64,000 bases of DNA from Candidatus Komeilibacteria bacterium (GTDB taxonomy: Bacteria > Patescibacteriota > Patescibacteriia > UBA1558 > UBA10009), in contig JAPLWM010000020.1 of the NCBI GenBank assembly GCA_026396575.1, positions 14,266-78,265 on the forward strand. The letters run 5' to 3'. Under the pieces are notes generated by a model. That model made no database searches, was not told the DNA's origin, and saw only the letters and a list, made by a program, of their open reading frames with translations. Below are positions 1,739 to 46,130 of the stretch, one piece after another. The number at the start of each line of letters is the position of its first letter. The stretch's first letter is position 1. Position numbers and translations under genes: made by a program.

Positions 1739-2614
1739 TCAGGTTTGAAATTCATAATCCGTTAATGTTTTAATAAGCGAGCTATTTTGAATTTTCTTAA
1801 TTCCATGTCTAAATTCCGTACTAACAAAGCTTGAAAGATTTTCTTTACTCTTGGCTTTTAATTTTAACTTTTTGCCGATTTCTAAATTATTCAATTCCTT
1901 GCCGTCCTCCAATCCAAACCTAAATTTTATAATATCTCGCTCCCTGTCTTTTAAAGTTTTTAAAACATTGCCGATATGCTTTTGTAATAATTCAAGCGAA
2001 ATTTTTAACTCAGCGATATCTATCCTATTATCAACAATCGTATCTCCCAGGGTCATCGTATCCCTATCCTTACCCTCTATAGGAGCGTCAATGCTTTCGA
2101 TAGTGAAGTTTAAATAGTCGAGCGCTGGTTTTAAGGCATGCTTAGTCCAGCCAAGCAATGTGCCAATTTTTTTAACCACCTCTTCAACCTCGGGCATCCG
2201 GCCTAGCTCCTGCATCAATCGTTCTTCGGCTTTCCTATAACGGCCAATAACCATCCCTACTTCCTTGGGTAATTTAATGATATGACTTTTTTCATAGACG
2301 TACCCAATGACATAATTGTTGATATAGCTAATTGCGCTGTGAAAGAATTTGCCTTTTGCAGGGTCATGCTTATCTACTGCCTTCATTAATCCGATTAAAC
2401 CCTCTTGCAATAAATCCTCTTCAGGGGCAAAGGGGGTCCATTTTTGTACTTTATTAACGACCAAACCAAACCAATACAAAACTATTTTTTCCCTAATGTC
2501 TTGGTTTTTTGTCTGGCGGTATTCATCAATCCAGGACTCTTCAAATTTTTTTAAACCAAGCTCTTTTATTCGGGCATTGATTATTTTATAATACTCTTTG
2601 TTTGTTTCGTACAT
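1739..2614 (-). CDS. sigma-70 family RNA polymerase sigma factor (phage-encoded)
   Basis: Region 2 motif LLQEGLIGLMKAVDKHDPAKGKFFHSAISYINNYVIGYV and region 4 HTH ERDIIKFRFGLEDGKELNNLEIGKKLKL; 291 aa. Confidence 0.75.
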   Translation of the reverse strand: MYETNKEYYKIINARIKELGLKKFEESWIDEYRQTKNQDIREKIVLYWFGLVVNKVQKWTPFAPEEDLLQEGLIGLMKAVDKHDPAKGKFFHSAISYINNYVIGYVYEKSHIIKLPKEVGMVIGRYRKAEERLMQELGRMPEVEEVVKKIGTLLGWTKHALKPALDYLNFTIESIDAPIEGKDRDTMTLGDTIVDNRIDIAELKISLELLQKHIGNVLKTLKDRERDIIKFRFGLEDGKELNNLEIGKKLKLKAKSKENLSSFVSTEFRHGIKKIQNSSLIKTLTDYEFQT

Positions 2615-19432: not shown

Positions 19433-19507
19433 TGGTGTCGGGGGCAGGAATCGAACCTGCGACCTCCTGGTTATGAGCCAAGTGAGCTGCCACTGCTCTA
19501 CCCCGAG
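19433..19507 (-). tRNA. tRNA with CAT anticodon (Met); initiator-like features
   Basis: Cloverleaf folded by hand from the reverse complement: 7 bp acceptor stem, D arm GAGC/GCUC, anticodon loop CUCAUAA, T loop TTCGATT, 3' CCA encoded. Positions 1:72 are C:C (unpaired) and 11:24 are A:U, both initiator hallmarks; only 2 of the 3 G-C pairs expected in an initiator anticodon stem are present. Confidence 0.8.
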
Positions 19508-22607: not shown

Positions 22608-22693
22608 TTTTTTATTTACTTAACTCAACCTCGCGCAACATCCGCCTTAGCCATGCCTTGCGCCAGTGTTTTAGCCAGATTTTTTTGATTAGA

Positions 22694-23143
22694 TTAAACA
22701 TTTTTTATGCTTTTATAATACCTATTGCTGACAGCTTGTTCCGTCACGCCAAATTCATCAGCTATTTTTCTGATACTCATTCCAGAATCTTTTAACGACT
22801 TAATTCTTTTATCATCCTCGTCGGTCCAGCGTCTTTTAGAGCCTTTGATTTTACTAACCTTAACTTCCGGTTCGTCCATTTCTTCACAATGGATTGAATT
22901 ACAGCTTGGGCAGGTGGCATCCCACTTTTTCAGATTAGATTTAAACTCTTTATTGCACTCCTGGCATTTGTAATTAATGGCGCTGCTTAAAGTTTCTTCT
23001 ACCTCGGCCTTTTTGTATTTTCGCTTTCCGTTTTTTTTGCCCTTTTTATAACCGTAAACTTTTTTAGCCGGTGGTTTTATCGGCTCAATTTCTTCCCTTA
23101 CCGGTTCAACTGGCTTTAAATTTTCTACCCCCCCCCCGACCAT
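22694..23143 (-). CDS. zinc-ribbon plus C-terminal HTH DNA-binding regulator
   Basis: CQEC...CPSC zinc ribbon; C-terminal RRWTDEDDKRIKSLKDSGMSIRKIADEFGVTEQAVSNRYYK (sigma-r4/GcrA-like HTH); start codon sits directly on a G10 tract. Confidence 0.55.
   Translation of the reverse strand: MVGGGVENLKPVEPVREEIEPIKPPAKKVYGYKKGKKNGKRKYKKAEVEETLSSAINYKCQECNKEFKSNLKKWDATCPSCNSIHCEEMDEPEVKVSKIKGSKRRWTDEDDKRIKSLKDSGMSIRKIADEFGVTEQAVSNRYYKSIKNV
23128..23137. repeat. homopolymeric C10 (G10 on the coding strand) tract at the 5' end of the regulator CDS
   Basis: Direct read: ...ctaccccccccccgacc...; it encodes the GGG of the MVGGGV N-terminus. Confidence 0.9.
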
Positions 23144-23209
23144 TAACCAGTTCCAAAATTAAATTCAGAACGGTAATAACTTTATCAATTTGATTTTGCA
23201 TATTTTATT

Positions 23210-23728
23210 TTAATTATTTAATAACCCTGCCGATTTTGAGCAGGCCCACAGATAAGCCTGGCCGGCTTTTAATTTATTAATTGTCCACGTGGCGCTCTCC
23301 TCAACGTCCATGGCGATTTTAGCCGTGCCTGGCCAAAACTCCTGATTGATTTGGAATAGACCTAAGCTTGAACCTCCATCACCCACAGCTTTCGGGTCAA
23401 ACCTGCTTTCGCACCAGGCCAGCCTGAGCAATTTTTCAGCGTCAAAGTTTTCCTGTTTGGCCACCAGCCTGATTCGGTCCCAAACAGTCAGTTCGTTCAG
23501 ATTGATTATTTCCGGCATCGCTTCCTGCGCTGCCACTTTTTGCGCCAGGCCGATGTTATAGCGCCTGCCTAATTCTCTTAACCCGAGCGAGGTAAAGAAA
23601 ATAATTAATATGGCCAAAATAATTAATCCAACAGTCAATCCCGAGCTTAATCTCTTCCTGCGCCACTCTTGATTTTTAGGTGTGATAATTGGCATACTCC
23701 AATTAGTCCAATAATTTTGTTGTTGCAT
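23210..23728 (-). CDS. membrane-anchored lytic transglycosylase (SLT-domain lysozyme)
   Basis: N-terminal TM; WCESRFDPKAVG...GLFQIN SLT catalytic block. Confidence 0.7.
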   Translation of the reverse strand: MQQQNYWTNWSMPIITPKNQEWRRKRLSSGLTVGLIILAILIIFFTSLGLRELGRRYNIGLAQKVAAQEAMPEIINLNELTVWDRIRLVAKQENFDAEKLLRLAWCESRFDPKAVGDGGSSLGLFQINQEFWPGTAKIAMDVEESATWTINKLKAGQAYLWACSKSAGLLNN

Positions 23729-46056: not shown

Positions 46057-46130
46057 TGGCTCGGAGACAGGGAATCGAACCCCGATTAGCAGAGCCAGAA
46101 TCTGCTGTCCTACCATTAGACGATCTCCGA
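46057..46130 (-). tRNA. tRNA-Gln (CTG anticodon)
   Basis: Hand-folded cloverleaf: acceptor UCGGAGA/UCUCCGA with U1-A72, D arm GTCT/GGAC, anticodon stem GCAGA/TCTGC, loop TTCTGGC, T loop TTCGATT, discriminator G; CCA encoded. Confidence 0.85.

What the first reader, a model, noticed from the sequence alone, without database searches (positions are those of the whole stretch)
23120..23210. G10 homopolymer at the start of a phage Zn-ribbon/HTH regulator, with an upstream ATG in an alternative frame
The regulator CDS 22694-23143 starts ATG GTC GGG GGG GGG GTA, directly on a 10-G run. A second ATG lies 60 nt upstream at 23201 (MQNQIDKVITVLNLILELVNG...) and reads into the tract in the -1 frame. With 10 G the protein starts at the internal ATG. 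With 9 G the upstream ATG would fuse a 21 aa N-terminal extension in frame. With 11 G both frames terminate early. This matches the layout of slipped-strand phase-variation switches. Alternatively it is a homopolymer sequencing error that hides a longer ORF.
Basis: seen in the sequence. Interest (0 to 1): 0.55.

Follow-up and report, generated by a model that had tools for sequence, protein, structure and literature searches.

The report
Poly-G tract splitting a prophage regulator gene
A run of ten G's breaks the reading frame of a prophage DNA-binding regulator gene in a candidate-phyla-radiation bacterium; similar G runs sit in the same part of distant relatives of the gene, so it is most likely a slippage-prone on/off switch of a well-known kind, currently "off", although actual switching has not been shown.

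Summary
C10 at 23128-23137 (G10 on the coding minus strand) is the only G/C run of 7 or more in 64 kb, in a genome that avoids such runs (2 runs of 6+ seen, about 36 expected). It is not a sequencing error: every assembly spanning the tract, from about 10 runs, reads G10.

The annotated 149-aa start (ATG 23143) looks like an internal ATG. The upstream ATG 23201 scores among the best starts in the window and lies 8 nt after the preceding gene. Its 21 codons encode an amphipathic helix that matches the N-terminus of the nearest homologue. So this is one gene (helix, Gly linker, Zn ribbon, Myb-like HTH; 168 aa at G9) broken by one extra G.

Two of four distant homologues, on other mobile elements, carry a G8 tract in the same linker, in frame. 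The tract recurs but the frameshift does not, and no stimulatory RNA structure is present. That favours slipped-strand phase variation over programmed recoding.

Switching is unproven. No other tract length appears at consensus level, and one run shows a contig break consistent with mixed G10 and G11+ reads. This is a new member of a known kind, of moderate interest.

The parts
23128..23137 (-). G10 homopolymer (C10 on + strand), the frame-setting tract. It encodes the first glycines of the linker.
   Evidence: the only G/C run of 7 or more in the window, in a genome strongly depleted of such runs.
23199..23201 (-). Upstream ATG, the likely true translation start of the gene.
   Evidence: start-context score 16.9 bits (94th percentile of 53 confident starts; 0 of 235 internal ATGs reach it). 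It lies 8 nt after the stop of the preceding SLT gene, which is typical spacing for this operon.
23138..23201 (-). Segment encoding the N-terminal amphipathic helix MQNQIDKVITVLNLILELVNG.
   Evidence: local alignment to the P0006 N-terminus scores 33, shuffle p=0.003, and the other two frames contain stop codons. AlphaFold predicts a helix at residues 2-20; hydrophobic moment 0.44, similar to the homologues' helices.
22694..23127 (-). Body of the gene downstream of the tract: disordered K-rich linker, CxxC...CxxC Zn ribbon, Myb/SANT-like three-helix HTH.
23141..23143 (-). Internal ATG used by the database annotation (149-aa product MCX6785951.1). It probably arises incidentally from the Asn-Gly codons AAT-GGT.
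   Evidence: score -3.3 bits, below all 53 true starts. With upstream positions only it scores -3.2, below 96% of true starts, and 36% of internal ATGs score at least as high. P0006 has the equivalent AAT-GAC.
23106..23201 (-). 31-aa ORF, the product of the upstream start in the G10 state (helix + RGGGRKFKAS).
   Evidence: called in the Logan assemblies (P0072).
22694..23201 (-). Whole regulator gene as reconstructed (in frame at G9 or G12).

Best explanation
The region 22694-23201 (minus strand) is one gene. It encodes a small DNA-binding protein of an integrated prophage: an N-terminal amphipathic helix (probably for oligomerisation), a flexible Gly/Lys-rich linker, a Zn ribbon and a Myb-like HTH. 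Translation starts at ATG 23201.

The poly-G tract lies at the helix/linker junction. It is a slippage-prone homopolymer that gains or loses G's during DNA replication (slipped-strand mispairing). At G9 or G12 the full 168/169-aa protein is made (ON). At G10, the state fixed in the sampled lysogen, ribosomes starting at 23201 stop after 31 aa. At best a small amount of a helix-less 149-aa form is made from a poor internal ATG (OFF or attenuated). At G8 or G11 nothing useful is made (null).

The recurrence of the tract in distant relatives on other mobile elements suggests that the tract is maintained as a contingency switch and is not an accident.

What is shown: the tract, the frames, the quality of the two starts, the homology of the N-terminus, the recurrence of tracts in homologues, and the accuracy of G10.

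What is inferred: that the length actually changes at a useful rate, that this is selected, and what the regulator controls.
For: - Start-site model: ATG 23201 scores 16.9 bits against -3.3 for ATG 23143.
- Gene spacing.
- N-terminal homology to P0006. HMMER aligned query residues 4-162 to P0006 residues 3-155.
- Helix 2-20, disordered linker, Zn ribbon and three-helix domain in the AlphaFold model.
- G8 tracts in the equivalent linker of P0022, seen in two assemblies (CTA GGG GGG GGT = LGGG), and of P0076 (GAG GGG GGG GTA GAA = EGGVE, against window-G9 CGG GGG GGG GTA GAA = RGGVE). Both are in frame and full length.
- These are the only G/C runs of 7 or more in about 87 kb of window plus homologue loci.
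- G/C runs are about 18-fold depleted in the window, and GGG is the rarest Gly codon.
- The frameshift is not conserved among homologues, and there is no stable RNA structure at the site (z=+0.79). By the criteria of Antonov et al. 2013 (PMC3711429) this argues against programmed recoding.
- The prophage is otherwise intact.
- In run ERR15302223 the two contigs abutting the tract share exactly the ten G's, which is the break expected if G10 and longer alleles coexist.
- Contingency loci are documented in phages, and SSRs are about 2-fold enriched in phage regulatory genes (bioRxiv 10.1101/2025.10.21.683753).
Against: - No alternative tract length is seen at consensus level. All contigs spanning the tract are G10.
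- The predicted products of G7, G8, G9, G11, G12 and G13 are absent from a 15-billion-protein collection, and the 5.8-billion search found only the 149-aa form.
- All assemblies sample one clonal lysogen (about 100% identity, same host junction), so stability across them is weak evidence either way.
- The contig-break signature could come from recurrent Illumina homopolymer errors.
- The family is tiny: five members, all singleton clusters. Two members lack a tract.
- The position of the P0076 tract within the variable-length linker cannot be aligned rigorously.
- The function of the regulator is unknown.
Confidence: 0.55

Rival explanations
1. This is a non-adaptive frameshift mutation. A G-rich Gly linker drifted into a long homopolymer, which is a mutational hotspot, and one extra G has inactivated a dispensable prophage regulator. 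The gene is now a pseudogene in this lysogen, and the tract has no switching role.
For: G10 is fixed in every assembly, and no other allele is on record. The linker is disordered and would tolerate extra glycines. Prophage genes are often under relaxed selection. The internal ATG looks incidental.
Against: The same kind of tract occurs in 3 of 5 distant homologues, in genomes that otherwise lack G/C runs of 7 or more. That is hard to explain by drift. No other gene of the prophage is disrupted. A G10 tract reverts readily, so 'pseudogene' and 'OFF phase' differ only in rate and selection.
Confidence: 0.22
2. This is programmed recoding. The G10 state is the functional genotype, and the full-length protein is made from ATG 23201 either by RNA-polymerase slippage (dropping one G in the mRNA) or by +1 ribosomal slippage of tRNA-Gly on GGG_G. 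This would give a fixed ratio of the 31-aa helix peptide to the full-length regulator, as with Shigella MxiE or dnaX.
For: G10 is stable in all samples. The upstream start is strong. A homopolymer of 10 is slippery for RNA polymerase and for ribosomes (established knowledge; Penno et al. 2005 and Larsen et al. 2000 as cited in PMC3711429).
Against: The frameshift is not conserved: homologues with the tract are in frame. No stimulatory RNA structure is present. Documented bacterial transcriptional slippage mostly uses A/T runs (own knowledge).
Confidence: 0.1
3. The database annotation is right. The 149-aa protein starts at ATG 23143, the tract merely encodes Gly-Gly-Gly near its N-terminus, and the 31-aa ORF is a separate small gene or is spurious.
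For: This is how NCBI and the Logan gene callers annotate it. The leader of ATG 23143 is 75% A+T, close to the mean of true starts.
Against: ATG 23143 scores below essentially all true starts, and ATG 23201 scores near the top. The N-terminus encoded upstream is homologous to that of P0006. All homologues have an N-terminal helix. This model leaves a 66-nt gap in a tightly packed operon.
Confidence: 0.08
4. This is a sequencing or assembly artefact. The true tract is G9, and the extra G is a homopolymer error.
For: Homopolymers are error-prone. Two Logan assemblies break at the tract.
Against: The G10 consensus is identical in the NCBI MAG and in every Logan contig that spans the tract, from about 10 runs under ERR and SRR accessions. 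No G9 product is on record anywhere.
Confidence: 0.03

Closest known systems
Hypermutable poly-G tracts in Campylobacter phage genes (Sørensen et al. 2021, known to me and cited by papers found) and contingency loci in T-even and other phages (Gomez, Barrick & Waters, bioRxiv 10.1101/2025.10.21.683753)
   Same: A homopolymer inside a phage ORF whose length sets the reading frame. The preprint also finds SSRs enriched about 2-fold in phage regulatory genes.
   Different: Those cases have read-level and phenotypic proof of switching, in lytic phages of Proteobacteria, mostly in receptor-binding or anti-defence genes. Here the gene is a prophage regulator in a CPR (Komeilibacteria) host, switching is unproven, and the tract recurs across distant homologues on different mobile elements.
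Bacterial translational phase variation with several start codons upstream of a repeat (Haemophilus influenzae lic1/lic2; poly-G/C tracts in Neisseria, Campylobacter and Helicobacter contingency genes; own knowledge, and review PMC11868660 listed)
   Same: The repeat lies in the 5' coding region, and two ATGs in different frames give three states (full, alternative or weak, null).
   Different: The second ATG here has a poor start context and is probably incidental. The target is a cytoplasmic DNA-binding protein, not a surface or modification function.
Regulators made by transcriptional slippage, such as Shigella MxiE at a T9 run (Penno et al. 2005, reference list of PMC3711429)
   Same: A transcription regulator whose N-terminal segment lies in a different frame from the body, with the two joined at a homopolymer.
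   Different: In MxiE the frameshift is the conserved, functional genotype at an A/T run. Here the homologues are in frame and the run is G.
Small Zn-ribbon + HTH (Myb/SANT-like, sigma-region-4-like) phage and mobile-element regulators
   Same: A CxxC...CxxC ribbon followed by a three-helix DNA-binding domain. JGI names P0006 a 'predicted Zn-ribbon and HTH transcriptional regulator'.
   Different: All Pfam hits for the window protein are below the gathering scores. There is no significant solved-structure match. The family as sampled has only five members.

Membership tests
Homopolymer contingency locus (slipped-strand phase variation) | Homopolymeric tract of about 7-8 nt or more inside, or just upstream of, the 5' part of an ORF | tested here: met
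   G10 at codons 23-26 of the reconstructed gene.
Homopolymer contingency locus (slipped-strand phase variation) | A change of one repeat unit switches between a full-length and a truncated product | tested here: met
   G9 and G12 give the full-length protein; G10 gives 31 aa (+149 aa from a poor ATG); G8 and G11 give 24 or 25 aa.
Homopolymer contingency locus (slipped-strand phase variation) | The tract is an outlier against the genome background, meaning it is retained despite general avoidance | tested here: met
   It is the only G/C run of 7 or more in the window. Runs of 6+ number 2 against 35.8 expected. GGG makes up 11% of Gly codons.
Homopolymer contingency locus (slipped-strand phase variation) | Homologues or strains carry the tract in different frame states | tested here: met
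   The window is out of frame at G10. P0022 and P0076 are in frame at G8. These are distant homologues, not strains.
Homopolymer contingency locus (slipped-strand phase variation) | Tract-length heterogeneity within a population or between isolates of one strain | tested here: inconclusive
   Every contig spanning the tract has a G10 consensus, and no alternative products are on record. One run shows a contig break consistent with G10 plus G11 or longer. Raw reads were not available.
Homopolymer contingency locus (slipped-strand phase variation) | Reversible, heritable switching of expression or phenotype | not testable with these tools
   This needs culture or reporter experiments.
Programmed frameshift / transcriptional slippage (recoding) | The frameshift is conserved at the same site across homologues | tested here: not met
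   The four homologues are single uninterrupted ORFs.
Programmed frameshift / transcriptional slippage (recoding) | A stimulatory element (RNA structure or SD-like sequence) flanks the slippery site | tested here: not met
   The fold of 23040-23215(-) gives z=+0.79, and 164 of 200 shuffles fold at least as well. No SD-like motif is visible.
Programmed frameshift / transcriptional slippage (recoding) | The shifted product is actually made from the unedited genotype | not testable with these tools
   This needs RNA-seq, proteomics or a reporter.
Myb/SANT-like HTH with Zn ribbon (Pfam PF00249/PF13921/PF22980; PF09723) | Score at or above the Pfam gathering threshold | tested here: not met
   HTH_7 scores 20.8 against a cut-off of 23.8, and Zn_ribbon_8 scores 19.7 against 34.4. 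Homologues carry precomputed Myb_DNA-binding and Zn_ribbon_8 hits.
Myb/SANT-like HTH with Zn ribbon (Pfam PF00249/PF13921/PF22980; PF09723) | Four Cys in a CxxC...CxxC arrangement and a C-terminal three-helix bundle | tested here: met
   C80, C83, C98 and C101 are invariant. AlphaFold predicts strands at 76-108 and helices at 128-139, 144-151 and 155-167, with pLDDT about 84-92.

The most novel reading that the evidence does not exclude
The poly-G tract may be an ancestral, maintained mutational switch in a family of mobile-element regulators. In this CPR prophage it would act as a stochastic trigger for the lysogeny-to-lytic programme (or another developmental programme). Lysogens would carry the OFF length (G10), which would explain why bulk metagenomes show only that allele. 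Rare slippage to G9 would restore the helix-bearing, oligomerising regulator and commit that cell to phage development, so in-frame alleles would be enriched in virions.
Probability: 0.15. Interest if true: 0.75.

Novelty: new member of a known kind. Interest (0 to 1): 0.45.

Why it matters
If the tract really switches, this would be a phase-variable regulator carried by a prophage of a candidate-phyla-radiation bacterium. Neither phase variation nor prophage regulation has been studied in that group. It would also be a regulator family in which the hypermutable tract itself is retained across distant mobile elements. That would extend recent reports that phages, not only their hosts, use contingency loci, from receptor-binding and anti-defence genes to regulatory genes.

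On the practical side, the database annotation (a 149-aa protein plus an uncalled or 31-aa ORF) is probably wrong about the start of the gene.

Tried and rejected
- Near-identical DNA in deposited phages: none.
- A length-tolerant DNA pattern (tract of 6-14) in the viral, metagenome and genome collections: no match.
With single proteins (P0022, P0076, the window protein): no relatives.
- 90% protein clusters of all family members: singletons, so no allelic variants.
- A second and third indexed protein search with alignments: no new helix-bearing members.
- P0141 and P0050 tested as possible split genes: both are intact and have no tract.
- Signal peptide or TM reading of the extension: rejected. 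The hydrophobic stretch is about 12 residues and interrupted by charges, the helix is amphipathic as in the homologues, and the protein is a DNA binder.
- Frameshift-stimulating RNA structure: none.
- Fold search against the PDB: only generic Zn-ribbon and HTH local matches, E >= 0.09.
It was replaced by an exact-sequence look-up, which found nothing.
- The CJIE1 prophage paper (PMC4004267) concerns host tracts, not prophage genes.

Full report
**1. The observation**

On the minus strand the sequence reads ATG(23201) CAA AAT CAA ... CTG GTT A-ATG(23143)-GTC-G10(23137..23128)-TAG AAA ATT.
- The 149-aa ORF 22694-23143 and the 31-aa ORF 23106-23201 are both listed mechanically.
- The two ATGs are 58 nt apart, so they lie in different frames.
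- Editing the tract in silico gives the following products:
  - G9 gives a 168-aa fusion (...LVNGRGGVENLKP...), and G12 gives 169 aa.
  - G10 gives 31 aa from the upstream ATG and 149 aa from the internal one.
  - G8 and G11 give 24 and 25 aa, because a TAG directly follows the tract in that frame, and only 11-12 aa from the internal ATG.

The tract is a strong outlier.
- It is the only G/C run of 7 or more in 64 kb, with no G run of 6+ and a single C6 elsewhere.
- A first-order Markov model of the window expects 35.8 G/C runs of 6+ and 10.1 of 7+, against 2 and 1 observed.
- GGG is the rarest glycine codon in the phage genes, at 11%.

**2. Where the window comes from**

- The 149-aa product is identical to MCX6785951.1 (locus tag NTZ18_03830), on a 98-kb contig of a 'Candidatus Komeilibacteria bacterium' MAG.
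- Window 1 to about 26.1 kb carries phage genes, all on the minus strand. In order they are:
  - head-tail adaptor, a sigma-factor-like protein, tail fibre, major head protein, protease, portal and large terminase;
  - a ParB-like nuclease, a resolvase, tRNA-Met and an exonuclease;
  - several small ORFs, the regulator, an SLT-domain protein, a DnaD-like loader, SSB and an AAA_24 ATPase.
- From 26.3 kb onward the genes are ordinary bacterial ones: SecA, MurB, MurC, FtsW, a T4P ATPase, a DnaX-like clamp loader, DnaK and FtsX.
- Independent Logan contigs run from the regulator region across this junction into secA. The element is therefore an integrated prophage in a CPR bacterium.

**3. Is G10 a sequencing error?**

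- Look-ups by the 149-aa product, by the upstream SLT protein and by the downstream 78-aa protein returned contigs from about ten sequencing runs (ERR153021xx/22xx and SRR2069865x).
- Every contig that spans the tract reads G10, and all are essentially 100% identical to the window.
- The products expected from G7, G8, G9, G11, G12 and G13 are absent from a 15-billion-protein collection, while the G10 products are present.
- G10 is thus the true majority sequence.
- Because all these assemblies sample the same clonal lysogen, this confirms accuracy and stability of the majority allele. It does not show evolutionary conservation.

**4. Which ATG is the start?**

Genes in this window have no Shine-Dalgarno motifs; they have A/T-rich leaders instead. 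I built a position weight matrix from 53 confident starts, with leave-one-out scoring and 235 in-frame internal ATGs as the null.

| Candidate | Full model | Upstream positions only |
|---|---|---|
| ATG 23201 | 16.9 bits; above 94% of true starts; reached by no internal ATG | 8.7 bits |
| ATG 23143 | -3.3 bits; below every true start | -3.2 bits; below 96% of true starts; 36% of internal ATGs score at least as high |

ATG 23201 lies 8 nt after the stop of the SLT gene, like the other 2-23-nt gaps of this operon. ATG 23143 would leave a 66-nt gap.

**5. Homologues**

- A HMMER search of 1.84 billion representatives with the in-frame fusion found only distant relatives, at about 30-35% identity. 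They are P0006 (160 aa, aligned from its residue 3 to query residue 4), P0022 (160 aa), P0081 (121 aa) and P0076 (115 aa).
- Indexed searches added no further members of this subfamily.
- All have an N-terminal helix, a variable linker rich in Lys/Arg, and an invariant CxxC...CxxC ribbon. The longer ones also have a Myb-like HTH.
- The 21 residues encoded upstream of the tract align to the P0006 N-terminus (QIDKVITVLNLILELVN / KIESLVKILELLERLIN) with score 33 and shuffle p = 0.003. The other two frames of that DNA contain 2 and 3 stop codons.
- AlphaFold on the family alignment predicts a helix at 2-20, disorder at 21-72, the ribbon at 76-108 and three helices at 128-167.
- The extension is amphipathic and is not a signal or TM segment.
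- The PDB fold search gave only generic ribbon and HTH matches.

Conclusion: 22694-23201 is one gene interrupted at the tract.

**6. The tract recurs**

- The DNA of P0022, seen in two assemblies (L013 and L014), reads ...TTA CTA GGG GGG GGT ACT... That is a G8 exactly at the helix/linker junction.
- The DNA of P0076 (L016, GC 61%) reads ...AAG GAG GGG GGG GTA GAA..., a G8 followed by the same GTAGAA as in the window.
- Both are in frame and give the full-length protein. One G more or fewer truncates them to 37-41 aa and 61-71 aa respectively.
- These are the only G/C runs of 7 or more in those loci. P0006 and P0081 have none.
- More distant Zn-ribbon/Myb proteins without the helix (P0141, P0050) have no tract and are not split.
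- Three of five members of a very divergent family therefore carry a G run of 8 or more in the same short linker, in genomes that otherwise lack such runs. If the three runs were placed at random within their own loci, the chance of all falling in the roughly 200-nt N-terminal segment of this gene is about 1e-5 (my estimate from the locus lengths).
- The homologues sit on other mobile elements: phage-like contexts for P0006 and P0081, and a conjugative context (Replic_Relax, TraG) for P0076.

**7. Mechanism**

- The tract recurs but the frameshift does not.
- There is no unusually stable RNA structure at the site (z = +0.79).
- By the criteria used to sort frame transitions in prokaryotic genomes, a conserved frameshift site marks programmed recoding, and repeats at non-conserved transitions mark phase variation (PMC3711429). 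On those criteria this is the phase-variation or mutation class.
- I therefore favour a slipped-strand contingency switch that is currently OFF, or attenuated if the weak internal ATG is used.
- This is a known kind of system. Poly-G tracts in Campylobacter phage genes, and recently contingency loci in T-even and other phages, have been described, with SSRs about 2-fold enriched in phage regulatory genes (10.1101/2025.10.21.683753).

**8. Evidence on actual variation**

- At consensus level there is none.
- In run ERR15302223 the upstream contig ends ...GGTC+G10 and the downstream contig begins G10+TAGAAAA, so they share exactly the ten G's. For k=31 unitigs that is the predicted break point if G10 and a longer allele both have k-mer support. 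A G9/G10 mixture would break after nine G's.
- That signature could also result from recurrent Illumina errors.
- A second run (SRR20698650) breaks near the tract in a way that looks like a coverage gap.
- Two of nine contig ends in this 2.4-kb stretch fall within 20 nt of the tract, which is more than chance would give. Any G10 would cause that, whatever its biology.

**9. Rivals**

- A non-adaptive frameshift in a decaying gene remains plausible (0.22). It differs from an OFF phase only in rate and selection.
- Programmed slippage from a fixed G10 genotype (0.10) fits the stability of G10 but not the in-frame homologues.
- The annotated two-ORF model (0.08) conflicts with the start-site scores and the N-terminal homology.
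- A sequencing error (0.03) is effectively excluded.

**10. Verdict**

- The gene model in the database is probably wrong about the start.
- The feature is a new member of a known kind.
- It has two modestly novel aspects: the host is a CPR prophage, and the tract is retained across a mobile-element regulator family.
- Interest is 0.45.

Noticed in passing
window 1-26100 vs 26300-64000: The window spans a prophage-host junction. An apparently intact tailed-phage genome segment, all on the minus strand, abuts secA and other housekeeping genes of a Komeilibacteria (CPR) chromosome. Independent Logan contigs cross the junction. No integrase or att site was identified within the window.
   Followed up: partly
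window 19433-19507 (-): A tRNA-Met (CAT) gene lies inside the prophage, between the exonuclease and the ParB-like gene. A tRNA-Gln lies at 46057-46130 in the host part.
   Followed up: no
window 23210-23728 (-): An SLT (lytic transglycosylase) domain protein with an N-terminal hydrophobic segment sits in the middle of the replication module, directly upstream of the regulator. The P0006 locus also has a DPBB_1 (RlpA-like) gene nearby.
   Followed up: no
whole window: G/C homopolymers are strongly depleted (2 runs of 6 or more against about 36 expected), while A/T runs of 6-9 are common. Starts lack Shine-Dalgarno motifs and have A/T-rich leaders.
   Followed up: partly
window 22631: Logan contigs from two different runs (ERR15302191 and SRR20698651) end at exactly this position, between the regulator's stop and the next ORF. 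No repeat in the window explains it. It may reflect a strain variant or a graph branch.
   Followed up: partly
window 22612-22701 (-): A 29-aa, very basic ORF (MFNLIKKIWLKHWRKAWLRRMLREVELSK) starts at an ATG overlapping the regulator's stop codon (A ATG TTT AA). This suggests translational coupling. It was called, in truncated form, in some Logan assemblies.
   Followed up: no
window 1739-2614 (-): A sigma-factor-like protein (phrog_351, E=2.5e-32) is encoded among the structural genes of the prophage.
   Followed up: no
L016 683-1030 and flanks: The homologue P0076, with its own G8 tract, lies on a 31-kb contig with Replic_Relax and TraG-like genes. So the regulator family is shared between phages and conjugative elements.
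   Followed up: no
window 23145-23175 (-): A small hairpin (CCGUUCUGAAU...AUUUUGGAACUGG) is the only element kept in the centroid RNA fold. It ends 8 nt before the tract. The region as a whole folds no better than shuffles, and the spacing does not match terminator-like slippage stimulators.
   Followed up: partly
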